Positions 1 through 21,753 of a DNA stretch of 64,000 nt are shown piece by piece (the stretch's first letter is position 1; each line of letters begins with the position of its first letter). The notes below the pieces were generated by a model that was not told the origin of the DNA, did not search any database, and saw nothing but the letters and a program-made list of their open reading frames with translations. The translations under genes were made by a program, and so were the position numbers. The DNA comes from the human T2T-CHM13v2.0 reference genome, Homo sapiens: NCBI RefSeq assembly GCF_009914755.1, contig NC_060938.1; one strand, 5' to 3'.

Positions 1-3000
1 AGTCTCCAGAGCATTCCATGAGGTGAAAGTCCCTTAACTTCCAACCTGAACTTTTTGACCATCAGTTCCCTATTCATAAAGTAGTTTTCTAGGATGGGGA
101 TTCTTGGGACATTGCATATGCATTTTTTTTTTAAAGAGGATCTCCGCTGGACATAGTGGGCTCCTGCCTGCAGTCCCAACTGTTTGGGAGGCTGAGGCAG
201 GAGGATTGCTTGAGCCAGTTTGAGGCTGCAGTGAGCTGTGATCTCCACTGTACTCCAGCCTGGTGACAGAGTGAGACCTCATCTCTTAAAAAAAACACAA
301 AATAAAGACGTTCTCTTTATCCTGTGAAAGCTTTCTGTGACCCAAGAAAGGTTTAGAATCACTATTTTAGGAGATTCTTATCCCATAAGGTATTTGTATT
401 GAATCTCAAAAGGCATTCACATCTCACATCCTCTGTGATAGCCTCCTAATTCACATTTATCAAGGTCCTAAATAAGTATCTAATTACCCTACTGTGGGAT
501 GTTGTATATTTCTTCAGATCCGGGCTCGAAATCCAGCATTTCAGCCACAAACTTTGATGGACTTTGGCTCAGGTACTGGTTCTGTCACCTGGTGAGTAAC
601 TTTCTTCAGCCCTATCTTGGTCAATTTTAGCTCTAGAAAGCCATACTTACACCACTCCAAAATTAACAGACTGGAAAACCAGAGGGAGAATAGGCAAGTT
701 GGGAATCTATAATGTTTCTTCCATCAGATTAGGCAAGGCAGAAGAAGGTATATGGATTGGGGCCAGAACTTAAAAGAAATGTCAAGTAAAAAAAGGCGCA
801 TGTGTAGAAAAATTAAAAAGAAAAGGAATTATCAATCAAAGTTGTTTTTGCCTACAAATAGTATTTTGAGTCTACCTTTTTTTTTTCTTTTTTGAAACGG
901 TGTCTCACTCTGTCGCCCAGGCTGGAGTGCAGTGGCACAATCTCGGCTCACTGCAGCCTCCTCTCCTGGGTTCAAGTGATTCTCCTGCCTCACCCTCCCG
1001 AGTAGCTGGGACTACAGGTGCACGCCACCACACCCAGCTAATTTTTGTATTTTTAGTAGAGACGGGGTTTCACCATATTGGCCAGGTTGGTCTCTAACTC
1101 CTGACCTTGTGATCCGCCCACCTTGGCCTCCCAAAGTGCTGGGATTACAAGCATGAGCCACTGTGCCCAGCTGAGTCTACCTTTTTTTTTTTAGGAGTTG
1201 TAAATAAAACAAGAAAATAACACTATTAGTTATTTTATTACTAACTATACAACTACTTTAACATAACACTCTCTTTTCCCAGGGGTGGGGTTGGGTGTAA
1301 ATGGGCCTCTTGTAGAGATGACTCTTGGTCATGGGAATTGGTGATTTATAATAATTTTGCCATCTTAGGGCTGCTCACAGTATTTGGGGCCAGAGCCTAC
1401 GTGAATATATGTGTGTGGACAGATCAGCTGCCATGTTGGTTTTGGCAGAAAAACTACTGAAAGGTGAGTGCAAGAGCACTTCCAAAGTTGAGGGAGTTAA
1501 GAAAGCAAAGGGGTACTAGTAAAAGTGTTTTACTGGGAAGTAGAGAAGAGGGTAAAAATTAAGATGAATCTGGTTTACTTTTAAAGTTATAGTCAAGCAA
1601 AGGGTGGTATTAGAGGTTTCTGCTGGACTGAGGATGGGTTGGGTAAGAATCAAAGGACAGGAGGCCTAATATTCTCCCTGCCCTTTTTTTTTTTTTTTTA
1701 ATTAGAGGTAGGGTCTCCATATGTTACCCAGGCTGGTCTCAAACTCCTGGCCTCAAGCCATCCTCCCACTTCAGCCTCTAGGGTAGCTGGGATTACAGGC
1801 ACGCACCGCCATACCTGGCTCATCCCTGCCCTTTTTGATATACACTTTACCTATTCTTGGGGCCATGTTTCTTATCTGGATATCTCTTCAGTTTATACCT
1901 AACTTCCTACACACTCACAGTTGCCTCTTCTTTTCTCCACAGGTGGTTCAGAATCTGGGGAGCCTTATATTCCAGGTGTCTTTTTCAGACAGTTTCTACC
2001 TGTATCACCCAAGGCAAGTGGCAGTGTTTAGAATATTCTAAATGTGGAATGTGGCAGATGGAAAACTATGGCTTGAGCTTTGCAGCCCAGCACTGAGTGT
2101 TAGAAGATAAAAGAAATTTAGCGGCTAGGACTTTGTTGTATTCTTGGGATGTAGAGATGTTGAGTCTGTCATGTTCCTTGTCTTGGTCCTCAGGTGCAGT
2201 TTGATGTAGTAGTGTCAGCTTTTTCCTTAAGTGAACTGCCCAGCAAGGCTGACCGCACTGAGGTAGTTCAAACCTTATGGCGTAAGACAGGTCATTTCCT
2301 GGTGAGTTAAAATTCCTTGTTCTCCTTAAGTCTTGAAGCAGCTTCATGGATTTCATGCCTTTGCTCCTCTCATTGTCTTTATTCTTCACCATTTTTCTCC
2401 TTCATGGGTTTCTTTATCCCTCTTTGAGGGTCTCCATCCTGATTATGTAATGCCTATTTCTTTTTAGGACTCCTTCTCCCTCTATGATTGCTCTTACACA
2501 GCTACTGACATTTATACTTTCGTGTAATTCAAGTCTTCTGCATATTTTCCCCTTTTGTGAACAGGTACTGGTGGAGAATGGAACAAAAGCTGGGCACAGC
2601 CTTCTCATGGATGCCAGGGATCTGGTCCTTAAGGTAAGGCTTCTTCTTCCCTCACTCCCCCACCCATATGTCACCAATTACTGTTACTCTCTTGAAAACG
2701 AAAGAGACTGTCATATATTGACAAGGGTGGCTCTCAGGAAACTGGGCGTATGAAGTCATTATGATACAGAGCAGTGGTTGGCAAATGAGAGCCTGTGGAT
2801 CAAATCCGACCTGCCACCTGTTTTTATATAAGCCATGCTTATCTGTGCCTCTGTTGTCTGTGACTGCTTTCACACTACAAACAGCAGAGTTGAGTAGTTG
2901 GGACAGAGATAGATTTTGCCTACTCTCTGGCCCTTTAAAAGAAACTTTGCGGACTCCTAATCTAGGGCATTGCTGAGCTAAGAACCTTGTCACTGGGGGA

Positions 3001-4290
3001 GAGTATGAGCCAGTGTATAATCATAAATTTAATTGTCCTGGAGTGGGATTTTTTTGAGAGTGGAGGTTGCTGACAAGGGAGAGCACCGTACTATGTGCCA
3101 AGTTCTTGCCTTTCTCCTGCAGCAAAGAGAAAGTTCTTTGTTTGGAGTATTAAAGATGCAGCCAGCTTAATTCAAAGGACATAGTCAATCGTTATTAGAA
3201 TTGAGTGTTAAAGGAGTCCTCAGTTTACTGAGTGCAGAGATTGAATTATGAAAATAGACCCTTGGCCCAGCTTTATTTCTTTTATTTCCTTTGATTTCAG
3301 GGAAAAGAGAAGTCACCTTTGGACCCTCGACCTGGTTTTGTCTTTGCCCCGGTGAGTATTACTTCTGCCTGTCCCACCACACGGATCTGAACTTAGGCGT
3401 GGCCGGGAAATGTAAGATGGTAAAGCTAAGCCACTCTCCACTACTTTGTGTTCCTATCCAGTTCCTACCTAATGATTCCCCTGGCTCTTCCTACCCACTG
3501 CTCCTGTCCTCCCTTCTCCCTGGCCCCTTTTGACTCTATTATTCTCAGTTTTTAAGTTTTGTGATTGATGGCTCTTTTGTCTTACCTCATTTTTTTATGT
3601 GTTCACAGTGTCCCCATGAACTCCCTTGTCCCCAGTTGACCAACCTGGCCTGTAGCTTCTCACAGGCGTACCATCCCATCCCCTTCAGCTGGGTAGGTAC
3701 CTGGGGATATTGCAGCAGGAAGCAAACATCCTGGAAAAACAGGAAGAAAAAGAATCAGAGTTAGGAGGAGTTGGATAATTTGTAGAATAGCCTGGAGACT
3801 TTAGGGCCTACATGTATATGATTTATACATTGTAAAAAAGGACTGCAGGAATGGGGAAGAAGGGACTGTACAAACTTTTTTCCCATATCTTTTTCTTCTA
3901 AACAGTCTCTATGTTCCTTATCTTAGAACAAGAAACCAAAGGAAGAAAAGTTCTCTATGGTGATCCTTGCTCGGGGGTCTCCAGAGGAGGCTCATCGCTG
4001 GCCCCGTATCACTCAGCCTGTCCTTAAACGGCCTCGCCATGTGCATTGTCACTTGTGCTGTCCAGATGGGCACATGCAGCATGCTGTGCTCACAGCCCGC
4101 CGGCACGGCAGGTATGGGGGGTGTGACCAAAATCAGTGGGATGTGGCAGGAAGCTGCAGCCCACGCCAGCATCTGTTTCCACAGGGATTTGTATCGTTGT
4201 GCCCGTGTCAGCTCCTGGGGAGATCTTTTACCTGTGCTTACTCCGTCTGCGTTTCCTCCATCTACGGCTCAGGATCCCTCTGAGAGTTGA
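1..4290 (+). CDS. METTL17: Methyltransferase-like 17 (mitoribosome small-subunit assembly factor), 3' part; coding exons 1-22, 518-591, 1369-1463, 1943-2013, 2194-2301, 2565-2633, 3301-3351, 3609-3692, 3927-4111, 4185-4290
   Basis: Exons join in frame at GT/GC-AG junctions to give [32 protein letters not shown] (SAM-binding motif I)...CPHELPCP...HCHLCC...QDPSES*. The gene start lies upstream of the window. Confidence 0.97.
146..305 (+). mobile_element. Old Alu monomer (FRAM/AluJ-type)
   Basis: ggaggctgaggcaggaggattgcttgagcc...actccagcctgg...A-tail. Confidence 0.8.
877..1171 (-). mobile_element. Full-length Alu (AluS-type)
   Basis: Antisense dimer with poly-T; TSD tgagtctacc on both sides. 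Confidence 0.92.
1684..1820 (-). mobile_element. Alu monomer (FLAM-like)
   Basis: Poly-T then antisense Alu monomer; TSD tccctgccctttt. Confidence 0.8.
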
Positions 4291-4406
4291 TGAGGATGTG
4301 TAACAAGTATTTTCTTCTATCGTGCCTGCCAGGGCTGAAGCTGCCTGGTATCCAGGAGGGGAATGCTGGTATCCCCATATGTCTGTGTTTGTTTGAGATT
4401 TTTAAT

Positions 4407-4419
4407 AATAAATAATAAA
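4407..4419 (+). terminator. METTL17 polyadenylation signals (two AATAAA)
   Basis: AATAAA at 4407-4412 and 4414-4419, about 120 nt after the stop codon. Confidence 0.8.
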
Positions 4420-4466
4420 TTTTTGAAGAATGGAAGTGGATTTTGTGATTCTTAAAAAGTGTAGAA

Positions 4467-4636
4467 GCTGGGCACGGTGGCATGTGTCTGCATTTCCAGC
4501 CACTCAGGAAGCTGAGGCAAGAGGATCACTTGAGCCCAGGTGTTAAGGCTACAGTGAACTTTGATTGTAACACTGCACTTCAGCATAGGTAACAGAGCAA
4601 GACGTCCTCCCTTAAAAAAAAAAAAAAAAAAAAAAA
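4467..4636 (+). mobile_element. Alu monomer (FRAM/AluJ-type)
   Basis: gctgggcacggtgg...gaggatcacttgagcccagg...long A-tail. Confidence 0.8.
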
Positions 4637-4743
4637 CATGTAAAAGGTATAGTTAATTATCCTGGCCTATCCTGTAATGAAGAGCTTCCTCAGATTTTTG
4701 GTGCCAGGCTTCCCACACAAATCTCAAGCTCGCCCTCTCCTAT

Positions 4744-5615
4744 TGTGGCAGTTCAGAGCTCCATAAGCTCTTCGCTGTAATGATGAATGTGTAAGCTGAT
4801 CATTAAAGCAGAAGTAGAAAAACCAGATTTCCATAAGCCCTTTGCTATAATGATGAATGTACAAGTTAAACATTAAAGCAGAAGCAAGAAAAATGGATAA
4901 GGAATCGGGGGAAACTGGTGCCTGAGTACGAAAGCCAGAATACAAAAAAAGCAAGCCCTTTAAAGCCCCACCTATACTTTCTCTACCTCAGATCTAGCTG
5001 AGTGATAAAAGCATTCCTGCACATACAACCCATCCCAGGACCAACTTAAGATTAAGAAACTTCTGTCTGCAAGTACTCACTCACTATGGTGGGATCAGCT
5101 GCAAAGCGAACTGTCCCATGCTCATGTTGATGGTTTTCTAGATACTGCCAACATGTTAGCTCTTTCTGGTGCCGATGAATTTCAAACGCGAACAGACACC
5201 CTTGATGTGGGTTTGCTAAGAAAATAGAAGAACAGGAAGAAAAGTTGCCAGGTTCAGACATCCCAGGGAAAAAGAAGCGTAAACAGCATTAGCAATCAGT
5301 GACTGATGATAATGCTGCAATAATGGGAATGGTTTTATTTCTAAATCAAATCGTTTATTGCTTTGTTTCTAAAAAACAAAAAAAAACTTCTACCTGCAGA
5401 CCCCTAGTTTAGATTAATTAGGAAACATTCCCGCAGGTAGTCATAGAGCTTGAATTGTATATAAAAGCTAAAGAAAAGCTTGTAACTTTGAGTTGGTCTG
5501 GTGTGCTACTCCGACCTCCCTGTAATCAGTTGCAGAAATAAACTCCCGTCTTTCCCAGTCTGTCTGTCTGCATCTCATTACCGGACCACAAGAACAAGCA
5601 GCAGGACCAGTAACA
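4744..5615 (+). mobile_element. Solo ERV1-class LTR related to the PABL LTRs downstream, interrupted by a retrocopy at 5072-5383
   Basis: Begins TGTGGCAG and ends ...TAACA; flanks ctat/ctgt. The 3' part (gtatataaaagc...tttgagttggtctggtg...gaaataaactc...gcatctcatt) aligns by eye with LTR 11145-11290. It contains a 70-bp-period internal repeat at 4760-4893. Confidence 0.7.
5072..5383 (+). pseudogene. Candidate processed (retrotransposed) transcript fragment of unknown parent
   Basis: About 310 nt unrelated to the LTR, ending in aaaaaacaaaaaaaaa; flanked by aaacttctgtctgca (5057-5071) and aaacttctacctgca (5384-5398). Confidence 0.6.
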
Positions 5616-6846
5616 CTGTAAGAATCATCCAGTAACACTGTAAGAATACTGCTTCTACCAGAGGCCAGGACTTCCCTAGGAAGATAATCTGGAGTAGCAA
5701 GGAAAGCTGCCTCCAGAGCTCTGAGAACTGGCTCAACAGGTCTCAGGGTTGTTATGTGGGCCACCTGAATAGGGGAATCAGCAGCTGCCTGGCCTCTTGT
5801 ACTAACGCCTTCCCTTCTGTCTTTCCCAGGGTCCCTCAGCTACCCTAGAGTATGTATGGGAAATGCCCCAGACATTTCCATCAAGAGTGATTCCCATCAG
5901 AACTGAATCTTCTACCCCCACCTCTCTATATCCAGGTAGAATCCTCCCATTCACTCAGTTCATTTCTGTTTTCCCCTAAGCCTTGCTGTTTCAGGGCTAG
6001 AGCAGCTTCCTTTGTCTTAAATCTTAAATGTCTTTTTTTCCACAGTTCTTACCAGGAAACAGGCACAGTCAGAAGTTGTAACAGTATAAATGTTGTAATA
6101 CCAGACATCTCAACTCATTCCTCTCAAAACTGATCCCAATCAAAAGAGAAAGAAAAAAAACAAATCAACTTACCACTAGACATTTCCATGCCTGGAGCTA
6201 TTTTTCTGGGGTTACAGGAAAGGGTAGTTCCCTCATGTGGGTACTAGTTCCCACAGAGTAGCACCAGCACCACCTCTCAGCCCCACCTCTTTACCTCCAG
6301 GTGGCCCCAAATCTCTGAAAGCGGGTGGTTCAAGTATCAGCATTGCAACCTATAAGACTTGGGATGAGGTGGAGAGGGTATGGAAGGCTTAGATCAAACG
6401 TCCTGAGTGAGACAGGACCAGATTGTCCCCAGTACAAAATAGCTGGGAAGCAGCTACCATAGACTTTCCTATTTTGGATTAGACCAACCCCAAGCACATG
6501 AACTAAGACTATCCGTAGCTCTTGGATTAGTCATGCCATTGAAGAGGAGGAGAAGACGCCACTGGGCTGTGCCTGGCAGGGAGTCTGGAGTTTCTGGTTT
6601 CCAAGCTCAGGAAGGCGTGAACCAGGGGAGGGGCCTCCATGCAGGGGGAGGGCTAGAAGCTGGGGCAGGATCTGTCAGCTCTGCAATGCTGCAGAAGCAG
6701 AAGCAACACAGAAAGAAGATACCAACAGCCTCCTGAAACTCACGAGAGTGGACACTCCAGTGTTGACCACCTAAGATACCACTCCTGCTCCAAAGATTAC
6801 AGCTCCCTTGTCATTCTGACTCCTGGGCTTACCCTACACCCCAGAG

Positions 6847-8979
6847 ATGGAGCAACTACTAGGAATAAAACTTGGCTGCCTGTTTGCCCTGTTGGCTCTC
6901 ACTCTGGGCTGTGGCCTTACTCCCATCTGCTTCAAATGGTTCCAGATTGATGCAGCCAGAGGTATAGCCCTACCCCATCTTTGTTCCATAGCCTGAGTCT
7001 CACCTCAACCCTGTCCTGATACCTTGCTCTGATTCTCTCACCATCCCCAACCTTGGGATATTGAGTGCTGCCTGCTGCTCTTTACTCACCTTTGTCTGTC
7101 TCCTCAGTGTCAAGTGGGTTGTAACTTCTGCTTTTTATTAGGTCATCACCGGCGAGTCCTCAGACTCCTGGGCTGTATTTCTGCTGGTGTTTTCCTGGGA
7201 GCAGGGTTCATGCATATGACTGCTGAAGCCCTGGAGGAAATTGAATCACAGATTCAGAAGTTCATGGTGCAGGTGAGAGCAGAGATTTCAAGCCGCAGGT
7301 CTATGAGGCCAAAATGATAAACAGGACAAAGGGAAGAGAGCGGGAAAGTGATGGAGCCAAGGACATGGGTGGAACGACAAGGAAAATGACAGCTCTGGTG
7401 TGGGATGGTGAAAGCAAGTCAGATTAGGCTTTAAGGAAAACAGAATTGCTGAAGGGACAGCACAGGAAGCTGTGCTGCTCCATCCCACATCTAATTTCTG
7501 CTGCTTTCTTCTTAGAACAGATCAGCAAGTGAGAGAAATTCTTCTGGTGATGCTGATTCAGCTCATGTAAGTACCTCCCACCATCCCCTATCTGGAGAGT
7601 GAGGAGAACCAGAGAGGCCTTTCATATCCAGACCCTTTTGAGAGGAATACATGAGGAGTACCAAGAATCCCTTCTGCTCCCTAGCTCAGACATCGTAGAG
7701 GAAAAGAGGAGCAAATCCAATCCTTTTGAGTTTATAGAATGCCAGGGAAAGCCCTTGTTTTACTCTTTCATTCTTTCCCTGGATCCTCTGATATACCTCA
7801 CATCATTTGCCCATGTTTTTAACTCTATTGAGATTCTGTCCCTTAGCCCCTCTGGCAGTCTTTTGTTGTTGTTGTTTTTCGTTTGTTTGTTGAGATGAAA
7901 TCTCTCTGTCGCCCAGACTGGAGTACAGTGGCACAATCTCGGCTCACTGCAACCTCTGCCTTCCGAGTTCTAGTGATTTTCCTGCCTCAGCCTCCTGAGT
8001 AGCTGGGATTACAGGCACGTGCCACCACACCTGGCTAGTTTTTGTATTTTTAGTAGAGGCGGGGTTTCATCATGTTGGCCAGGCTGGTCTCAATCTCCTG
8101 ACCTCAAGTGATCTGCCCACTTCAGTCTCCCAAAGTGCTAGGATTACAGGCATGAGCCACTGTGTCCGGCCCACTCTGGCATTCTTGTTGTTGCACGGCC
8201 ATGTCTACTCTTGGCTTCATTTCCCCTACCCTTTTTTGTGTTCTGTTACCACATTTTCTCATTCTCTTCAATCTCCCAATTCCATGTCCATCCAATGTAT
8301 TGCCTACCCTTCCTTTCCATCTCACAGCCCTTCTTTTTGTTTCTAGATGGAGTATCCCTATGGAGAGCTCATCATCTCCCTGGGCTTCTTTCTTGTCTTC
8401 TTTTTGGAGTCGCTGGCATTGCAGTGCTGTCCTGGGGCTGCTGGAGGATCGACAGTGCAGGACGAAGAATGGGGTGGGGCTCATATCTTCGAACTCCACA
8501 GCCATGGACATTTACCCTCACCCTCAAAGGGTCCCCTCCGAGCCCTTGTCCTCTTGCTGTCACTCTCCTTTCACTCAGTGTTTGAAGGGCTAGCTGTGGG
8601 GCTGCAGCCGACAGTAGCAGCTACCGTGCAGCTCTGCCTTGCTGTCCTGGCTCATAAGGGGCTTGTGGTGTTTGGTGTAGGAATGCGGCTAGTGCATTTA
8701 GGTACCAGCTCACGATGGGCAGTGTTCTCCATACTATTATTAGCTCTCATGTCCCCCCTGGGCCTAGCCGTAGGGCTGGCTGTGACTGGAGGGGACTCTG
8801 AAGGAGGGCGGGGCTTAGCCCAGGCTGTGTTAGAGGGTGTGGCAGCTGGTACCTTCCTGTATGTCACCTTCCTAGAAATTCTTCCACGGGAGCTAGCTAG
8901 TCCTGAGGCCCCTCTAGCTAAGTGGAGCTGTGTAGCCGCTGGTTTTGCCTTCATGGCCTTTATTGCCTTGTGGGCCTGA
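6847..8979 (+). CDS. SLC39A2: Zinc transporter ZIP2 (309 aa); coding exons 6847-6961, 7142-7272, 7516-7566, 8347-8979
   Basis: [13 protein letters not shown]...; ZIP TM4 signature [15 protein letters not shown] and TM5 AHKG; all junctions GT-AG and in frame. Confidence 0.98.
7861..8171 (-). mobile_element. Alu (AluS-type) in SLC39A2 intron 3
   Basis: Antisense full-length Alu; TSD ctctggca(g/t)tc. Confidence 0.9.
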
Positions 8980-9248
8980 GAGATTCCTGGCTTTTCTGAT
9001 GGACCTATTTAGGACAACCTCTCTATCCCCAGGGAGACCTCCCAAATGGCTTTGACCCTCAGACATTTCTTTACTCAGACTAAATAGCATTCAGTAGGAC
9101 TGGACTGGACCCCAGGTTTCCTTTACATGAGATCCCATTTCTCACCCTGGACTAAGACAAAGATATTTAGGTTGAGCAGCTATTAATTGGAGAATTGGTA
9201 CAGAGACGCTCCAGATTTTATTCTTATCCCATTTATGCTACTGTGTGT

Positions 9249-9254
9249 AATAAA
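9249..9254 (+). terminator. SLC39A2 polyadenylation signal
   Basis: AATAAA about 270 nt after the stop codon. Confidence 0.75.
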
Positions 9255-10457
9255 ATGCCCATTTTACCCTCCTTCAGCCATTCTGGATTTCATTTCTCCT
9301 GGTTGCCTAGATGCTACCTGGCACAGGAAGTGGTGGAATGGGGAATGGGAAGGATGAGTGTTGAATGCAGTATTTTATTCTGGAATTAGGGCTCCTAGCC
9401 ATCCTGTCAGTTGCAGCCACACCCCTAGACATGGCACCTTGCTAAAATTCCCCTCCCACCTTACCCACTGTAGTTGAGAAAATGAGCCAGTTCCCAGCAT
9501 TTAAAAGGAAAGAAAGTTAAAAGCCAAAATGACGTGGATCGATTATGTTCCTACACTTACCATAACCACCCCATTCCCAGTACCCATTATCAGCCACCGA
9601 TAACATGTCCAGGCTAAATGGAGATCAGGCAGAATGGAACCTATCTCCATTAGGTTCCTGTTTTTTCACACCGAGCCCTGTGTGGCCTCAGGGACACTAT
9701 TGCTCTTCTTTGAGCTTCTATCTCCTTCCAGCTGCCTTGTGTTGAGGGATTAAAAAGCAGTGTGCTTGGAGAGGGAGAAAGGTGCTAGATATTAAAATAA
9801 ATGCCTGGGATGATTACTTGGCTCTTGCAGGACTCACTGGCTTTTCTCCTGCCTGTCTTACCAATTGTCTTTCCATCTAAGTAACCCCTACAATGTGTTG
9901 TTTCTCTTAAAAACTGCTGAGGACAAATACGAAAGCAGGTTAGCTGGAATTGGTAGGAACAGGATGGCTATTGCATAGCCCCCAACTCATGAGGTGGAGG
10001 AATATCTCAAACTTAGTGGAGAAATGGGGAAAGAGAAAGTGTGCCCTGTGAGTTCAGTTACCCTCACAAGTTGGCCCTTTCTAGTATTTTCAGCATGGAA
10101 GCCCAAGTACCTTAACATGGACATTCATTCTTCTTCTCAGTCTCTGTCTCCTTTCCATCCTGTTCCCCTTCCTACAAAGTAAGAAATACAAGCCTCCTCA
10201 TAAGCCCAGTTTACACACCCAGAGATCAGTGAGAAGGCCAGCTTCAGGCAAAAATGATACAGAGAGAGAGAGAGGGAGAGATGATAGATATGTCTAACGC
10301 AGGAAATCATTTCCCTAAAGCACCATAGTATTGTGTTTTCTTTCCATTTAGCGTTAAATGCAGTAACATGTAATACACTCAGAACAGTTGTCCAGTGTGT
10401 AGTAGTTTCTACTGTAATAGTTTCTACACTGAACAATGGCTATGTGCCAGGTACTAT

Positions 10458-11316
10458 TGTGGCAGGCCAGGTTTCACTAACGCAGGCCTCCATCACATTT
10501 TCGTCTCACAGCCCTTCTTTTTGTTTCTAGATGGAGTATCCCTGTCACGGGCTTATTTTGTTTCCAGTCAAGCAAAACAAGGGGCTTATCTCCCTCACAG
10601 ATCAGCATATGAGATATGCTTCAGATATGTTTGCCTGTCAGACCCATAAACACAACAAGATATGCCAGCTGCAATGGAAGAGAAGCCCTGTTTCAGTTCG
10701 TGGATTACAGACTGCAACTGGTTAGGTTAAATATTAAAAGCTAAAAAAAAGCCGGTGCCTATACAAAGGCCGTCATGTAACAAAAGCCCATCAAGAGTTT
10801 TGATTAGGCCTTTCCTGGCAAAACTTAAAGCATGACAAAATAACGAAGGAATTCTTACCAGGACCCATTTAGGATTACACAAGTTTTATTGAGGGTCTGA
10901 AGAAACTCCCCAGGCCTCCACAAACAAGTTTACTGGGCATCTGAAGGAACTCCCCAAACCTCTGTGATTTAGCAGAAGACAAGATAAGGGTAACCACCCC
11001 AGCATCTAGACCCATTTAGATTAAGCTTACTGAGGCTCCAGGAGTAGGTCTTCCAGACTCAGACCTTAGTTATAGATGAAAAGAAGTTAATCACTTATGT
11101 CTTTAGATGAATGCACGCTTACACGTAGACATATAGCTTAGAAGGTATATAAGCTCTGAAAAACTTTGTAATTTTGAGTTGGTCTGGTGATAATTTCCAG
11201 GCCTTCTCCCTGTAACCGATGACAGAAATAAAAACTCTCTTTCTGCCCAGTTCATCGGCATCTCATTATTGGGCCACGAGAAATAGCAGCGTGACCCTCT
11301 GTTTGGTCTGGGAACA
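10458..11316 (+). repeat. 5' LTR (carries a 190-nt foreign insertion at 10498-10687)
   Basis: Aligns with 17069-17719; TATA (gtatataag) near 11145; AATAAA 11227-11232. Confidence 0.92.
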
Positions 11317-11321
11317 AAATT

Positions 11322-11339
11322 TGGAGAGCCAGCCAGGAG
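11322..11339 (+). other. Primer binding site complementary to the tRNA-Arg 3' end
   Basis: tggagagccagccaggag matches TGGCGAGCCAGCCAGGAG (complement of tRNA-Arg(ACG) ...CTCCTGGCTGGCTCG-CCA) at 17 of 18 positions. Confidence 0.8.
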
Positions 11340-13481
11340 ATAAGGATAGTGCTGCCTTCAATGGCCGGCAGCTTGCGACGAGACAGTCTTCAGGAGGATC
11401 CCAGCAGCTGTGGGGTGAGGTTTCCCCCGGGGACCCTCCAGAGGGCTGGTCCATGTGCAAATCTGCACATCCCTTTCACTACTGGCGAAGAACAGAGGTC
11501 AGGAGCGGAGAGGCTCAAAGGGTGAGTTAACTGGATCATATGCCAGGAGCCTATTGTTTTCCTATCTGGGCTTGTGAAGCCATTTGTCCGGTACCACCAA
11601 GGGAAGCAATAGGGCTCGTTCATACGCCTGCTTTGCATTTTGGTCGAGATCAGGTTTTGAGTTAGTTTTGAGTCTCTTTTGCCTGACTGCACTCCCCCTT
11701 GAAATCTGTCTCCACTTGTTTGTGTGTCTGTCTTGTTCCTTTTGATACCATGTAAACTTGAAAACGGGAAGTATTGGGTCCATTCCTGCTGGGAGGCCTC
11801 TGGGAAGGAGAAAGGTTTTTTTTAGAAGCTCAATAGTTGAGAGTCAGCTTAATTAAAAGCTACCATCCAAAATGTGTATGCGTATATATGTGTGTGTGCA
11901 TGTTTGTATTTAAAAGGCCTTCATGTTTTTGTTTATTTCTCACCTAGGACCTTGTTTTTTTGAGCAAAAGTTTTTTCTTCACAGTTGACTGAATCCTGTT
12001 TTCTTCATTAATGGCTAGTACAACAGAACCTACTCTGAGATTTTTAAGATAAATGTAATTTAGATGCTAGAAATGTCTTTGTTTGAAAAAAAAATTAAGT
12101 GCACTGTAAAAGCATCAAATGGTCTAGCCTCATAATAATTCTCCCCTTTTGAAAACCCAGGATTCAGTGTGGGGTCTGCCCAGAGCTCAAAGGTCCAGTT
12201 AAAAAATAGGAAAAGGAAGGCTTATGAATTTATAAAATATACTTCTATTGGCATGCCTAATACGTGTAGGTATTTATGTCTTGTGTACACCATGTTTCAC
12301 TACTGAAAAATATAAAAGAGTTCTAATTTACTGACTCAAAGAAAAAATAAAAGCACTTACAAACTTTAACAGAAAAAAGGAAAGACTAGTCAAGTGCTTT
12401 TTCAAGTTTATGTGACTTAAGTAAAATCCTTAATAAATAAGCTAGCTTTAAAAATTATTGGTAAAGTAATATTAGAAATCTTAAGAGTTGCCAGCATACA
12501 TTTTTGTTTGCATTTATTGATCAAGCAATTTCATACTTATCTCTGCCAAATACTATAAAGTGTCAAAATTTGGCATGGAGGCTACAAAACTATAACCCAG
12601 CCCAAAACAGAATGATCTTTGCTTGTGTAGTTTTTAAGAATAAAACATTAATATTGGTTTAATGAAGATAGCTACATCTTGAATTATTTAGTAAAATACT
12701 GTAACTTCTGATCTTGTGGCCTTAGGCAGTCTAGTCCACAGACATGAAGAAAGTTTGTTCTGGGAAAGGACTGTTATCGTCTTTGTTTCAAAGCTAAACT
12801 ATAAACTAAGTTAATAAACAAGAATAGCTTGTAGATTAGACGCAAAATGGAGTCAGGTCAGATCATTTTCACTGTCTCAGTTATAATTTTGCAATGGCGG
12901 CTTCAAAACTTTAAATGATGACTATCGTAGTTTTCATAAATAATCCAGGTAAACGATTAAAATAATTAGATAAATGCAATTGGATAAATACTTGTAAATA
13001 ACTTGTCAAAATTTAGAATCTAAAATTATATTAAACAACAGATATCTCATTATTTGGGTATTTTCCAATAACAATATATTGTAGGAAAACATTCTTTCTA
13101 AAGATTGTGTCTTTTTTAAAGGGTAACTAATTTTTGTCTAATTCAAAGCTTATTTAAAGATTATATACAAAACAAGGTAAAAGAAACCAGGGAATAAAAG
13201 AAATATAAAGAAAGCTATAAAAATAAATAGAGTTTTAAAGATTATTGGTGAAATAAAAATATTTTCAAAAATGTAAGCCTTTGGTCTAAATTATGCAGGT
13301 CAAATATTACGTTTGCGAAATGCTTTAGTCCATAAACTGCTTCTTTGACTTAAAAATTGTTCAATTTATTTTGGCGGGTTAAATTCTAGATAAGGCCTGG
13401 GGACATGTAAAATTAGCCATGCCCCCTAGCTGTGCAAAAAGGTATTAAAGAAAAGAGAATTTATATAAGAAAGGATCTTGT

Positions 13482-13548
13482 TCGTGCCACTGCACTCCAG
13501 CCTGGATGACAGAGCAAGACTCCGTCTCAAAAAAAAAAAAAGAAAAAA
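13482..13548 (+). mobile_element. Severely 5'-truncated Alu inside the provirus
   Basis: Last ~47 nt of Alu plus A-tail; TSD aaaggatcttgt. Confidence 0.85.
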
Positions 13549-13657
13549 AAAGGATCTTGTATGGTACATTCTTGTCCTAAAGTAAAATAACTGCTTGTTT
13601 AAAGAGAGGGATGTTTAGGACAAGTCAGAAAGTCAAGACATGTCAGAGATTGTGTAA

Positions 13658-13970
<313 letters not shown>

Positions 13971-14939
13971 TGTGAAAGATTTATGAAAGGGAATTTATGC
14001 AAGAAATGTTGTACAATTTAAAGGTGATTAGGCCTCCTAAATGCTTTATAAAATGCTACTATGGCTCTTAGCTGTACAACTTGCCTGCTTTACACCTAGG
14101 TAAGGCCTGGGACACATGGAGTTAGATGCTGGAATAAGTCAGACCTTATCTGCACTTCTGTCTAGGTCCTAGGCTCCACACCTAGTACACAGTTAAAATC
14201 CCAGACTTACCAAGGTTTTCACCAAAAGTAAAGGTTGCTAAGAGTTAACGGTGTAACATGTATTTTAAGACTACTGAAGAAACAGTTTACATGCCAGGTG
14301 TGTAAGGAAAGTAAAATATACTTTTGGTAAAAGATTATAAGGATGCATGAGATTGTGGATTTCTGCCTAGATTAAAAGGTTAAAGGATTGTTTTAAATTG
14401 GATACAATAAAGATAAAGGTTTAAGCAAGTTGTGGAAGGTTAATTGTAGAGGAAATTCTGTGTGTAAAATATTGGCTAAAGTTAAAAGGGAATCATCCAG
14501 TTTTTTCTGTAAATCGAGCATTGAAATAAAAGCACAATGGGATTCTCTTAGAGCACTAACTTGCTCTTTAACAAAAATTGTAAAGGGTTATAAAAAGTCT
14601 ATAAAAATCTTACCTTGTGGTGAAACATTAAAATTGGGTAAACATGTCTATAAGGATTTATTAAGAATTGGGTTTAACATCCATAGTACACTAATGTAAA
14701 GGTGAAGTTTGGCTTATTTGGTATGAAAATTATACAGGAAGCATTGTCAAATATGAAATGGTGTTTGGCTTTCTTTGGGTTATATTTGTGTAAATATGTT
14801 ATTGGTATGTGTTCCAAAGTTATGGGAGACTCCTATAATTCTGATATATCTTAGTGTATGTTATCAGTAATAATTATAATTGTTATGTTAAATTATTGTG
14901 TGCCACAGAGGTAACAGATTTTCTTGTCAGTTGTGTCTC

Positions 14940-15244
14940 TTTTTTTTTTTCTTTTTTTTTTTTTGAGGCAGAGTCTCACTCTGTCACCCAGGCTGTAGTG
15001 CAGTGGTGAGATCTCGGCTCACTGAAACTTCTGCCGCCCAGGTTGAAGCAATTCTCCTGCTTCAGCCTCCTCAGTAGCTGGGACTACAGGCACATGCCAC
15101 CACGCCCAGCTAATTTTTGTATTTTTAGTAGAGACAGGGTTTCACCATGTTGGCCAGGCTGGTCTCGAACTCCTGACCTCATGATCCACCCACCTCAGCC
15201 TCCCAAAGTGCTGGGATTACAGGCGTGAGCCACCGCGGCTGGCC
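14940..15244 (-). mobile_element. Alu (AluS-type) inside the provirus
   Basis: Antisense Alu; TSD gtca(g/a)ttgtgtct. Confidence 0.9.
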
Positions 15245-15362
15245 GTCAATTGTGTCTTTAACTATGGCTACCCTAAACATTTTTGTTATCTGTAAGCAAT
15301 TGTTGTCTTGTTTTCATCCTCTTTTGAAGGTGGTTTTATAATCAGCTATAAAGCTCTAACAA

Positions 15363-15683
<321 letters not shown>

Positions 15684-17068
15684 CTAGGTGCTCTTGATTG
15701 CAGATTTCTGATAACTTTTGAGATTGTGACATCAGAATAGAGGAAAACGTTCAGGACTCTTGAAGAGCTAAAATTTTCATTAATATCAAGCAGGATAGGA
15801 ATTAACTGCATGAACTGAACTAAGAGGAGACTGGAGTGATTTTGTTGACATTTTGCTTAGAATATTGCTAATCTTTTGTTTTGCTTTTCAAAGTCGAAGA
15901 AACTTTTCTTTTGAGCTATTGACAGCTTTTAACAATTTAGTATACTCCCATGAACAAAATTTAGAGCATACTTTTTTCTCTCTACTTGATTTTCTCCAGA
16001 ATTTGGAAACTGTCTGTGAGTATTCTTAAGTTATGGCAATAGAGTTATTCGCATAAGTGTAGTAAGAATCTGTTTTCTTTTGTAACAGGCCACAATTGGA
16101 AAAACGTTATTTTTACCAAGGCTTTGACTGGAATGATGCGCTTTCCTTTAAGGAATCAAACCTGACTTATGAACCCAATAAAGCCCTTGGGAAACTGCCC
16201 TCATATTTTGTGTACACAGTCCTTGTACAGGGTTTCTGACCTGTAGTAAGTAAAAAATGTCACTTTCTGACAGGGCAGGAACCCTAAGGTATCTTGGAAC
16301 CTCAAGAGGAGAGGAATTCACCCAACTCATAGGTATTTGATGGTACAAATCCATGGCTGGGTTTGGCTTTAAAAAGGTCTTATGTCAGATTCCTTCTATG
16401 GAACAAAGTTCCATGAAAGCCAGTTCAAAAGGCCTATGTGAAAAATAATTATTCTTGCTGCACTTTATGCAAATAATCTGGCCAAGTATAATAAAGCTAA
16501 CCAGTCCTATCATGATTTGTCTTTTAATAAAAATGGGAAACTGGAGAAAGAAAAATTGTTTCAAAACTATAGTACACCTGTTGTTAAATTCTAGTGTTGC
16601 CTGGTGTTTTTCAGTTTTTATTATTTTCTACAGTTTGGATTAAATTCTAATTTTTCTGACTACAAGTCTGCAGATAATGTTTTCAATTTTTTCCTTTTGC
16701 TTTTCCTTTGTCCCCATTTTTCCTAACTGAAAATCATTGAAACCTAAGCTGTGCTTTCTTAAAGCCCTGTGAACGGAAGACTAGACAACTTACATTTCAG
16801 AAGAAAACAGCAGCAACCTATTTATATGTATTGCTGTTGCATACTATTATGTTTCATCGGGCACTGCCTCTAATCCCCCCAAACAGAGAGCGCTACTGGG
16901 AACAAATCGACCTCTTCCACCCCAGTGCTGCGTTCAGTGCCCCATAACGATGACCCTCTCTCAGCAGGAAGTAGCCAGAAAGATTACAATGCCCCATCTC
17001 CCTACGATTCTCATGATAAATAAATATACAAGCATGATAGAAATCATGCACAAATTGACAGTGGGGAT

Positions 17069-17719
17069 TGTAGCAGGCCAGGCTTCACTAATGCAGGCCT
17101 CCATCACAACTGTTTCAGTACTGACTGGGTAGTTAAGTTAAATATTAAAAGCCAGTGCCCTTATACAAAGGCTGTAATGTAACAAAAGCCCATCAAGAGT
17201 TTTGCTTAGGCCTTTCTTGGGCCTTAAAGCATGACAAAATAACGAAGGAATTCTTAACAGGACCCATTTAGGATTAAACAGGTTTTATTGGATGGCTGAA
17301 GAAATTTCCCAGGCCTCCACAAACAAGTTTATTGGAGGTCTGAAGGAACTCCCCAAACCTCTGTGATTTAGCAGGAGACAAGATAAGGGTAATCATCCCA
17401 GCATCTAGACCCATTTAGATTAAGTAAACTTACTGAAGCTCCAGAGGTAGGTTTTCCGGACTCAGACCTTAGTTATAGATTAAAAGAAGTTAATCACTTA
17501 TGTCTTTAGACGAATGCATGCTTACACGTAGACATATAGCTTAGAAGGTATATAAGCTCTGAAAAACTTTGTAATTTTGAGTTGGTCTGGTGATAATTTC
17601 CAGGCCTTCTCCCTGTAACCGATGACAGAAATAAAAACTCTCTTTCTGCCCAGTTCATCGGCATCTCGTTATTGGGCCACAAGAAATAGCAGGCCGACCC
17701 TCAGTTTGGTCCAGGAACA
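17069..17719 (+). repeat. 3' LTR (651 bp)
   Basis: tgtagcaggccagg...ggtccaggaaca; direct repeat of the 5' LTR. Confidence 0.92.

Positions 17720-21050: not shown

Positions 21051-21753
<703 letters not shown>

What the first reader, a model, noticed from the sequence alone, without database searches (positions are those of the whole stretch)
10498..10725. SLC39A2 splice acceptor copied into the downstream ERV LTR: candidate alternative last exon for ZIP2
Seen: the 5' LTR has ~190 nt (10498-10687) that the 3' LTR lacks (the 3' LTR reads catcaca-a-ctgtttcagt). Within it, 10504-10543 is 40/40 identical to 8320-8359, i.e. the CTCAC branch-like motif, polypyrimidine tract, AG and first 13 nt (ATGGAGTATCCCT) of SLC39A2 exon 4, on the same strand 2.2 kb downstream. 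The LTR adds CACTAAC about 50 nt upstream of the copied AG. The frame stays open for 64 codons (MEYPCHGLIL...TATG*, 10531-10725) and the LTR AATAAA lies at 11227. Inference: splicing exon 3 (7566) to 10531 would give a 163-aa product with ZIP2 residues 1-103 but no TM4/TM5 metal site, ending at the LTR polyA site. This could act as a decoy or dominant-negative switch. It must compete with the normal exon 4 and the polyA signal at 9249.
Basis: partly seen in the sequence, partly recalled or inferred. Interest (0 to 1): 0.8.

Follow-up and report, generated by a model that had tools for sequence, protein, structure and literature searches.

The report
Two-donor repair patch in an LTR
The extra DNA in this LTR is an old repair patch stitched from two places on chromosome 14, one of them the ZIP2 exon 4 splice acceptor, and nothing yet shows that cells use the copied acceptor.

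Summary
Window 10504-10543 matches 8320-8359 at 40 of 40 bases. This covers the last 27 bases of SLC39A2 intron 3 and the first 13 of exon 4. The 64-codon frame and the 163-aa arithmetic also hold.

Bases 10542-10718 copy, inverted, a single-copy site at G000:C14:73283187-73283362 (171 of 176 matched, one 1-base gap). The extra DNA is therefore 221 nt (10498-10718), made of two copied tracts. It replaces 21 nt that the 3' LTR and 5 of 5 other family copies examined still carry. It has no target-site duplication and no poly(A) tail.

This fits a templated insertion laid down during break repair, a known kind of event (passages of PMC5110952 and PMC8421209). The copies differ from their donors by 1-3%, against 7% between the two LTRs. 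The event is therefore old, and not an assembly copy-paste.

Use as an alternative ZIP2 last exon could not be tested here. The supplied RefSeq table has no such exon. The identical true acceptor and the gene's poly(A) signal both lie upstream. Interest is low to moderate.

The parts
8314..8359 (+). Donor 1: the last 33 nt of SLC39A2 intron 3 (CTCAC branch-like motif, pyrimidine tract, AG) and the first 13 nt of exon 4. It is intact in place.
   Evidence: exon bounds come from the gene table supplied with the finding.
10458..11316 (+). 5' LTR (859 nt, TG...CA) of an LTR retroelement. It carries the patch.
   Evidence: It is about 93% identical to the 3' LTR outside the patch (579 of 623 aligned bases). 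The 4-nt flank CTAT is repeated after the 3' LTR.
10498..10543 (+). Patch tract 1: copy of donor 1 (44 of 46; core 10504-10543 is 40 of 40). The copied AG lies at 10529-10530.
10542..10718 (+). Patch tract 2: inverted copy of G000:C14:73283187-73283362 (171 of 176 matched, one 1-base gap). It overlaps tract 1 by the 2 nt CT.
10531..10725 (+). Open frame of 64 codons plus a stop, starting at the copied exon start. It is in phase with SLC39A2 exon 3. It is hypothetical, with no transcript evidence.
10733..10738 (+). ATTAAA, 8 nt after the stop of the open frame, in native LTR sequence
11227..11232 (+). AATAAA of the LTR
9249..9254 (+). AATAAA of SLC39A2 itself. It competes with any downstream exon.
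   Evidence: the supplied gene table puts the gene end at 9271.
17069..17719 (+). 3' LTR (651 nt), without the patch
17109..17129 (+). The 21 nt of LTR that the patch replaced in the 5' LTR. They include CTGTTTCAGT, which donor 2 also holds near its end.
8250..8258 (+). CACATTTTC in SLC39A2 intron 3. The same 9-mer spans joint 1 at 10494-10502. It may mark a very short extra copied tract, but it is close to what chance allows.

Best explanation
After the LTR retroelement had integrated, the U3 part of its 5' LTR broke and lost 21 nt. The gap was filled by copying from two other places, not by cut and paste.

- **Tract 1.** 40-46 nt came from the SLC39A2 intron 3/exon 4 junction, 2.2 kb upstream, in the same orientation.
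- **Tract 2.** About 170 nt came, inverted, from a single-copy site 58 Mb away on the same chromosome. That site lies inside a large neurexin-like gene.
- **Result.** A 221-nt patch at 10498-10718. Both donors remain intact.

This is a multi-template templated insertion. It could have arisen by end joining of copied patches or by microhomology-guided template switching.

As a side effect the patch placed a full copy of the exon 4 acceptor (branch-like motif, pyrimidine tract, AG) 1.26 kb beyond the SLC39A2 poly(A) site. It lies upstream of the LTR's own poly(A) signals. The most likely state is a neutral scar with little or no splicing into it.

Shown: the make-up of the patch, its donors, its uniqueness, and its absence from the other LTR copies. 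Inferred: the break, the order of copying, the enzymes, and the lack of function.
For: - **Two donors account for the whole insert.** They are 10498-10543 from 8314-8359 (44 of 46) and 10542-10718 from C14:73283187-73283362, minus strand (171 of 176, one gap).
- **Uniqueness.** The 162-nt core has only 2 matches in the assembly at E up to 10: itself and donor 2.
- **Donor 2 is single-copy.** A 1001-nt query around donor 2 matched only its own locus and, over 176 nt, this LTR.
- **The LTR family lacks the patch.** The 3' LTR and 5 of 5 other copies (L004-L008) run from CATCACA through 17-21 nt to GTTAAGTTAAAT (L007 has GTTAAATTAAAT). In one search all LTR-family matches align only to the flanks of the insert. 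These 5 copies are the loci that one search kept out of 157 first-look candidates.
- **No retrotransposition marks.** The patch has no target-site duplication and no poly(A) tail. The A-run after 10740 is native to the family.
- **Direction of copying.** Likeness to donor 2 starts exactly where likeness to SLC39A2 ends, with a 2-nt overlap CT. This is expected if both are donors. It would be a coincidence if the distant site had been copied from the LTR.
- **Shared motifs.** Donor 2 holds CTGTTTCAGT and then ACAGACTG near its end. The replaced LTR stretch holds CTGTTTCAGT and then ACTGACTG. 18 of 5000 shuffles reach a 10-nt shared word.
- **Mismatch clustering.** 5 of 7 mismatches lie within 10 nt of the left end of a tract (binomial 0.003, post hoc). 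Filler bases or error-prone copying would give this.
- **Age.** The patch differs from its donors by 2 of 207 (cores) to 7 of 222 (all). The two LTRs differ by 44 of 623. The event is therefore old but younger than the element.
- **Known kind.** Class 2 templated insertions are described with microdeletion, microhomology, filler bases and intact donors (PMC5110952, passages). Germline multi-template insertions are also described (PMC8421209, passages).
Against: - **Little microhomology at the joints.** Joint 1 has 0 nt, or 4 nt (CACA) if the 9-mer at 8250-8258 is a real micro-tract. Joint 2 has 2 nt. Joint 3 has 0 nt. The template-switching version is therefore not clearly favoured over plain end joining.
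- **Homology not at the joint.** The 10-nt shared word lies 21 nt inside joint 3, which no simple annealing model explains.
- **No outgroups.** No other assembly, ape genome or read set could be searched. Age, fixation and direction of copying rest on this one genome.
- **Function not excluded.** The copied acceptor is intact from -27 to +13. It lies on the sense strand, is followed by an open frame in phase with exon 3, and has two poly(A) signals downstream.
Confidence: 0.8

Rival explanations
1. One reading: the copied acceptor is used. Exon 3 (ending at 7566) is spliced to 10531 and the transcript ends at an LTR poly(A) site. This would give a 163-aa ZIP2 that lacks the exon 4 transmembrane and metal-binding part and acts as a decoy or switch.
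For: - The acceptor is identical to the true one from -27 to +13, so any score based on that span is equal for both.
- It lies on the same strand, and the frame is in phase with exon 3 and open for 64 codons.
- ATTAAA at 10733 and AATAAA at 11227 follow.
- Only 523 of 20000 shuffles keep the frame open.
- ZIP2 does undergo a regulated splice switch to a truncated form, though through a different event (PMC5828551, passages).
Against: - The supplied RefSeq table shows no exon there.
- The identical true acceptor is transcribed first, and it is followed by the gene's AATAAA at 9249 with the gene end at 9271. The copy needs both exon 4 skipping and read-through (inference).
- The frame reaches 64 codons only because of one extra G at 10676/10677. 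With the donor's sequence it would stop after 48 codons.
- The rest of the would-be exon is a random intronic piece from another gene.
- The published truncated ZIP2 did not interfere with the wild type.
- The two paper searches run for a link (SLC39A2 + LTR, 5 listed of 6 found; ZIP2 + SLC39A2 + splice variant, 9 listed) gave no title or abstract start about such an exon.
Confidence: 0.07
2. Reversed direction: the 176 nt at C14:73283187-73283362 were copied from this LTR, and the LTR got 10544-10687 from a source now lost.
For: Part of the shared stretch (CTGTTTCAGT ... ACAGACTG) resembles native LTR sequence. A copy taken out of the LTR could therefore include it.
Against: - The shared stretch starts within 2 nt of the end of the SLC39A2 tract, which would be a coincidence for a copy taken from the LTR.
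- The LTR would also need a 9-nt insertion and further changes within 31 nt, against about 7% divergence elsewhere.
- A second, unknown donor would still be needed for the other 144 nt.
Confidence: 0.03
3. Assembly chimera or artificial insert: the patch is not in real human DNA.
For: Only one assembly could be searched, and its copy of the locus is identical to the window.
Against: Both tracts differ from their donors: 2 of 46, and 5 of 176 plus a gap. A mis-join or copy-paste of present-day sequence would be identical. At 221 nt the patch is short, and its flanks are ordinary LTR sequence.
Confidence: 0.02
4. LTR subfamily difference or recombination between two proviruses: the 5' LTR comes from a variant of the family that carries this stretch.
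For: The two LTRs differ by about 7% and by several small gaps.
Against: The 162-nt core occurs nowhere else in the assembly apart from donor 2. 5 of 5 other copies examined and the 3' LTR lack it. Part of it is a gene's intron/exon junction.
Confidence: 0.02

Closest known systems
Class 2 templated sequence insertions (TSI/TSIP; Onozawa and Aplan; PMC5110952, passages read)
   Same: A patch copied from distant unique loci while the donors stay intact. No target-site duplication and no poly(A) tail. A microdeletion at the recipient site, little microhomology, and possible filler bases. Both donors lie in gene bodies (the SLC39A2 pre-mRNA region, and between exons of a neurexin-like gene).
   Different: There are two donors in one patch, one only 2.2 kb away. 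It looks old and probably fixed, but whether it is polymorphic could not be tested. RNA templating could not be tested either. If RNA was the template for tract 1, it was unspliced pre-mRNA, because the tract spans an intron/exon junction.
Multi-template insertions attributed to microhomology-mediated template switching (MMBIR/FoSTeS; MMB-TI; PMC8421209, passages read)
   Same: Several copied tracts in a row, one of them inverted. 2 nt of overlap at the inner joint. A 10-nt shared word plus a 7-of-8 match between donor 2 and the replaced recipient stretch. Mismatches cluster at the tract starts.
   Different: Microhomology at the two outer joints is 0 nt by the strict definition. One template is 58 Mb away, whereas the yeast events that paper built on copied a template within 100 bp of the insertion. 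The tracts (46 and 177 nt) may also be longer than usual for that class, but this last point is recalled and comes from no call.
LTR-supplied alternative terminal exons and poly(A) sites of human genes (for example a leptin receptor short form and HHLA2/3; recalled, not looked up here)
   Same: A sense-strand acceptor and an LTR poly(A) signal downstream of, or within, a gene could make an alternative last exon.
   Different: In the known cases the LTR's own sequence supplies the acceptor and transcripts are documented. Here the acceptor is a copy of the gene's own exon 4 acceptor, it lies beyond the gene's poly(A) site, and no transcript is known.
Delta-C ZIP2, the published truncated ZIP2 isoform (PMC5828551, passages read)
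   Same: A C-terminally truncated ZIP2 made by alternative RNA processing.
   Different: It arises by intron 1 retention and a frameshift, not through a downstream exon. It was reported to have no zinc-importing and no WT-ZIP2-interfering activity.

Membership tests
Class 2 templated sequence insertion | The inserted DNA is copied from another unique genomic locus and the donor stays intact | tested here: met
   Both donors were found and are intact. The SLC39A2 acceptor at 8347 is in place.
Class 2 templated sequence insertion | No target-site duplication, no poly(A) tail, no L1-type insertion site | tested here: met
   The flanks are CATCACA and TGGTTAGG with nothing duplicated. The patch ends in GCAAC. 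The nearby A-run is native to the LTR family.
Class 2 templated sequence insertion | End-joining marks: microdeletion, short microhomology, filler bases | tested here: met
   21 nt of LTR were lost. There is a 2-nt overlap at the inner joint. 6-7 poorly matching bases lie at the start of each tract.
Class 2 templated sequence insertion | Polymorphic among humans (the P in TSIP) | not testable with these tools
   Only one human assembly is held. Divergence from the donors of 1-3% suggests an old, perhaps fixed, event.
Class 2 templated sequence insertion | Template is RNA (reverse transcribed) | not testable with these tools
   Both donors lie in gene bodies (supplied gene table), but this is weak evidence.
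Microhomology-mediated multi-template insertion (MMBIR-like) | Two or more consecutive template switches | tested here: met
   Recipient to donor 1, to donor 2, and back to recipient.
Microhomology-mediated multi-template insertion (MMBIR-like) | Microhomology of 2 nt or more at each joint | tested here: inconclusive
   Joint 2 has 2 nt. Joints 1 and 3 have 0 nt at the joint itself. A 9-mer at joint 1 and a 10-mer 21 nt inside joint 3 (18 of 5000 shuffles) hint at homology-guided pairing.
LTR-derived alternative terminal exon | Sense-strand splice acceptor and downstream poly(A) signal | tested here: met
   The acceptor is identical to that of exon 4 from -27 to +13. ATTAAA lies at 10733 and AATAAA at 11227.
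LTR-derived alternative terminal exon | Transcripts that join an upstream exon to it | not testable with these tools
   No RNA data are held. The supplied RefSeq table lists no such exon. The listings of two paper searches showed nothing on it.
Endogenous retrovirus / LTR retroelement | Two direct LTRs with TG...CA ends and a short target-site duplication | tested here: met
   LTRs at 10458-11316 and 17069-17719, with CTAT on both outer flanks.
Endogenous retrovirus / LTR retroelement | Recognisable gag, pol or env domains inside | tested here: not met
   No retroviral Pfam family at E up to 0.01 in any of three tests. 12 plus-strand open frames of 55 aa or more gave one sub-threshold non-retroviral match. 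All three plus frames read through with X gave 0 families. A full-length relative, L015, gave 0 families. 'LTR retroelement' is therefore safe, and 'ERV' is by architecture only.

The most novel reading that the evidence does not exclude
A break-repair patch carried a complete working copy of a gene's own last-exon acceptor to a spot just beyond that gene's poly(A) site, next to LTR poly(A) signals. In some tissue or state, read-through SLC39A2 transcripts splice exon 3 to 10531 and make a 163-aa truncated ZIP2. That would be exon birth by templated insertion. A second bold variant is that tract 1 was copied from nascent unspliced SLC39A2 RNA tethered 2 kb from the break.
Probability: 0.07. 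Interest if true: 0.6.

Novelty: new member of a known kind. Interest (0 to 1): 0.3.

Why it matters
It is a clean, fully resolved germline example of a two-donor templated insertion. Both donors still lie on the same chromosome, so the joints can be read base by base and the event can be dated against the LTR pair. Such cases help to separate end joining of copied patches from template switching. If the copied acceptor were used, it would show a new route by which a gene can gain an alternative last exon. As it stands it is most likely a neutral scar, and the ZIP2 isoform idea rests on sequence alone.

Tried and rejected
- **Chance or repeat origin of the acceptor copy.** Rejected: the 46-nt stretch has only the SLC39A2 site as a second match in the assembly.
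- **LTR subfamily variant.** Rejected.
- **Donor 2 as a repeat.** Rejected: it is single-copy over 1 kb.
- **Naming the retroelement family.** Failed. No retroviral Pfam domain was found in the window copy or in a full-length relative. No repeat library is held.
- **Local templates for the poorly matching bases at the tract starts.** The search gave one 9-mer at joint 1 (about 0.05 expected by chance) and only chance-level 7-mers at joint 2.
- **Is donor 2 coding?** In its home locus the equivalent frame stops earlier, and nothing suggests an exon.
- **Paper searches linking SLC39A2 to an LTR or to a downstream exon.** SLC39A2 + LTR: 5 listed of 6 found, titles and abstract starts only. ZIP2 + SLC39A2 + splice variant: 9 listed. 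They led only to the intron 1 retention isoform.
- **Splice-site scoring programs.** None are held. The only statement made is that the two acceptors are identical from -27 to +13.

Full report
**1.

Window 10504-10543 equals 8320-8359 at 40 of 40 bases. With two transitions at the left end, the likeness runs over 8314-8359 and 10498-10543 at 44 of 46. The stretch holds the last part of SLC39A2 intron 3 (CTCAC, pyrimidine tract, AG) and the first 13 bases of exon 4. It lies on the same strand, 2184 nt downstream. The 23 bases from -20 to +3 are identical at both sites.

The other details also check out.
- CACTAAC lies at 10475-10481.
- Exons 1-3 hold 297 coding bases, so exon 4 starts in phase 0. 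The frame from 10531 is open for 64 codons, to a TAG at 10723-10725, which gives 99 + 64 = 163 aa.
- Poly(A) hexamers lie at 9249 (the gene's own), 10733 (ATTAAA) and 11227 (AATAAA).

In the whole assembly the 46-nt stretch has only the SLC39A2 site as a second match.

**2. What the rest of the insert is**

A search of the assembly with 10440-10760 split the query into four parts.
- Positions 1-58 and roughly 267-320 matched many LTR copies.
- Positions 59-104 matched SLC39A2.
- Positions 103-279 matched one place, G000:C14:73283187-73283362, on the minus strand, at 97%.

The 162-nt core alone (10544-10705) has just two matches at E up to 10: itself and that place. A 1001-nt query around the distal place matched only its own locus and, over 176 nt, this LTR. 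Base by base, 10542-10718 equals the inverted distal site at 171 of 176, with one 1-base gap.

The extra DNA is therefore 10498-10718, 221 nt, made of two copied tracts that overlap by the 2 nt CT.

**3. What it replaced**

The 3' LTR and 5 of 5 other copies of the family examined (L004-L008) run from CATCACA through 17-21 nt, beginning ACTGTTTCAG, ACTGTCTCAG or ACTGCTTCAG, to GTTAAGTTAAAT (L007 has GTTAAATTAAAT). These five are the loci that one search kept out of 157 first-look candidates. In the 5' LTR those 21 nt are gone and the patch stands in their place.

The lost LTR stretch holds CTGTTTCAGT and then ACTGACTG. A shared word of 10 nt is reached by 18 of 5000 shuffles of donor 2.

The patch has no target-site duplication and no poly(A) tail. 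The A-run near 10740 is native to the family, and the 3' LTR has a small deletion there.

**4. Direction and reality**

Likeness to the distal site begins exactly where likeness to SLC39A2 ends. This is expected if both are donors of one patch, and would be a coincidence if the distal site had been copied from the LTR.

Both tracts differ from their donors, by 2 of 46 and by 5 of 176 plus a gap. A present-day assembly mis-join or pasted sequence is therefore unlikely. Only one assembly could be searched, and this remains a limit.

**5. Joints**

- Joint 1 (10497/10498) has no strict microhomology.
- Joint 2 has 2 nt (CT).
- Joint 3 (10718/10719) has none, though the 10-mer and a 7-of-8 match lie just inside it.

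5 of the 7 mismatches lie within 10 nt of the left end of a tract (binomial 0.003, chosen after seeing the data). These bases (10498-10503 and 10544-10550) may be filler, error-prone copying, or later CpG decay.

A 9-mer, CACATTTTC, spans joint 1 (10494-10502). It also occurs at 8250-8258 in SLC39A2 intron 3, about 60 nt before the main tract. By my estimate about 0.05 such hits are expected by chance, so it is only a hint of an extra very short switch.

**6. Age**

Outside the patch the two LTRs differ at 44 of 623 aligned bases (K = 0.074). The patch differs from its donors at 2 of 207 (cores only) to 7 of 222 (all), so K = 0.010-0.032. The patch is therefore roughly 0.13-0.43 times as old as the element.

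With recalled primate neutral rates of about 1-2 x 10^-9 per site per year, the element would be some 17-34 million years old and the patch a few to about 15 million. The counts are small and the rates are recalled.

**7. The donors' settings**

Donor 1 lies in the SLC39A2 transcription unit and spans an intron/exon junction.

Donor 2 lies between plus-strand Laminin_G_2 exon matches at C14:73175832 and C14:73873727. These belong to a row of 8 such matches from 72.45 to 73.87 Mb. The same pattern appears at two other places, on C2 and C11. By recall this is NRXN3, and the tract is antisense to it.

Templated insertions are said to be enriched for transcribed sequence (PMC5110952, passages). 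As much of the genome is intronic, this is weak support.

**8. The host element**

It has two direct LTRs with TG...CA ends and CTAT on both outer flanks. Its inner part matches at least 70 places in the assembly.

No retroviral Pfam family was found in three tests.
- 12 plus-strand open frames gave one sub-threshold non-retroviral match.
- The three plus frames read through with X gave 0 families.
- A full-length relative on C4 gave 0 families.

It is an LTR retroelement by architecture. I could not name its family.

**9. How it most likely arose**

A break in U3 of the 5' LTR after integration was repaired by copying, first or last, from a site 2.2 kb away and from a site 58 Mb away on the same chromosome, with loss of 21 nt.

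This matches class 2 templated sequence insertions: intact donors, a microdeletion, little microhomology, filler bases, no target-site duplication and no poly(A) tail (PMC5110952). In having several tracts it also matches the germline multi-template insertions ascribed to microhomology-mediated template switching (PMC8421209). I cannot tell these two routes apart, nor DNA from RNA templates.

**10. The exon idea**

The sequence supports it in these ways.
- The acceptor is identical to the true one.
- It lies on the sense strand, in phase with exon 3.
- The frame is open, and poly(A) signals follow.

Against it:
- The supplied RefSeq table has no such exon.
- The true acceptor is identical, nearer and transcribed first.
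- The gene's AATAAA and end (9249, 9271) come 1.26 kb before the copy.
- The rest of the would-be exon is a chance piece of another gene's intron.
- The frame owes its last 16 codons to one extra G at 10676/10677. With the donor's sequence it would stop after 48 codons.
- 523 of 20000 shuffles keep the frame open, so the open frame is only mildly unusual.

The one truncated ZIP2 in print arises by intron 1 retention. It was reported to have no zinc-importing and no WT-ZIP2-interfering activity (PMC5828551, passages). The supplementary files of that paper were not looked at.

Two paper searches were run: SLC39A2 + LTR (5 listed of 6 found) and ZIP2 + SLC39A2 + splice variant (9 listed). Judged from titles and abstract starts, neither gave anything on a downstream LTR exon.

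**11. Verdict**

The origin is a two-donor templated insertion, a new member of a known kind. The alternative last exon is a fair hypothesis that needs RNA data. I put detectable use at about 0.07.

Noticed in passing
window 11317-17068; L015 (G000:C4:165904200-165910700): The LTR-flanked element and a full-length relative show no retroviral Pfam domain, even when read through stops with X. The family has at least 70 internal matches in the assembly and an LTR-to-LTR spacing of about 5.4 kb in the relative. It may be a non-autonomous or very decayed LTR element.
   Followed up: partly
window 10676-10677: The patch has GG where donor 2 has a single G. This one extra base moves the frame past a TGA and lengthens the open frame from 48 to 64 codons.
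   Followed up: yes
window 10740-10752 vs 17150-17156: The 3' LTR lacks about 9 nt of an A-rich stretch (GCTAAAAAAAAGCCGG in the 5' LTR) that other family copies carry in some form. This is a small deletion in the 3' LTR, unrelated to the patch.
   Followed up: partly
window 13661-13976, 14930-15263, 15367-15685: Alu-like repeats lie inside the LTR element. They account for most of the extra 1 kb of LTR spacing compared with the relative on C4.
   Followed up: no
window 21461-21728: A long purine-rich GAAA/GGAA-type simple repeat follows an Alu-like copy.
   Followed up: no
G000:C14:72452330-73874011: A row of 8 plus-strand Laminin_G_2 exon matches marks a very large neurexin-like gene (NRXN3 by recall). 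Donor 2 of the patch lies in its roughly 700-kb gap between the matches at 73175832 and 73873727.
   Followed up: partly
window 10494-10502 and 8250-8258: The 9-mer CACATTTTC spans the left joint of the patch and also occurs in SLC39A2 intron 3, about 60 nt before the main copied tract. It may mark an extra very short template switch, but it is near chance level.
   Followed up: partly
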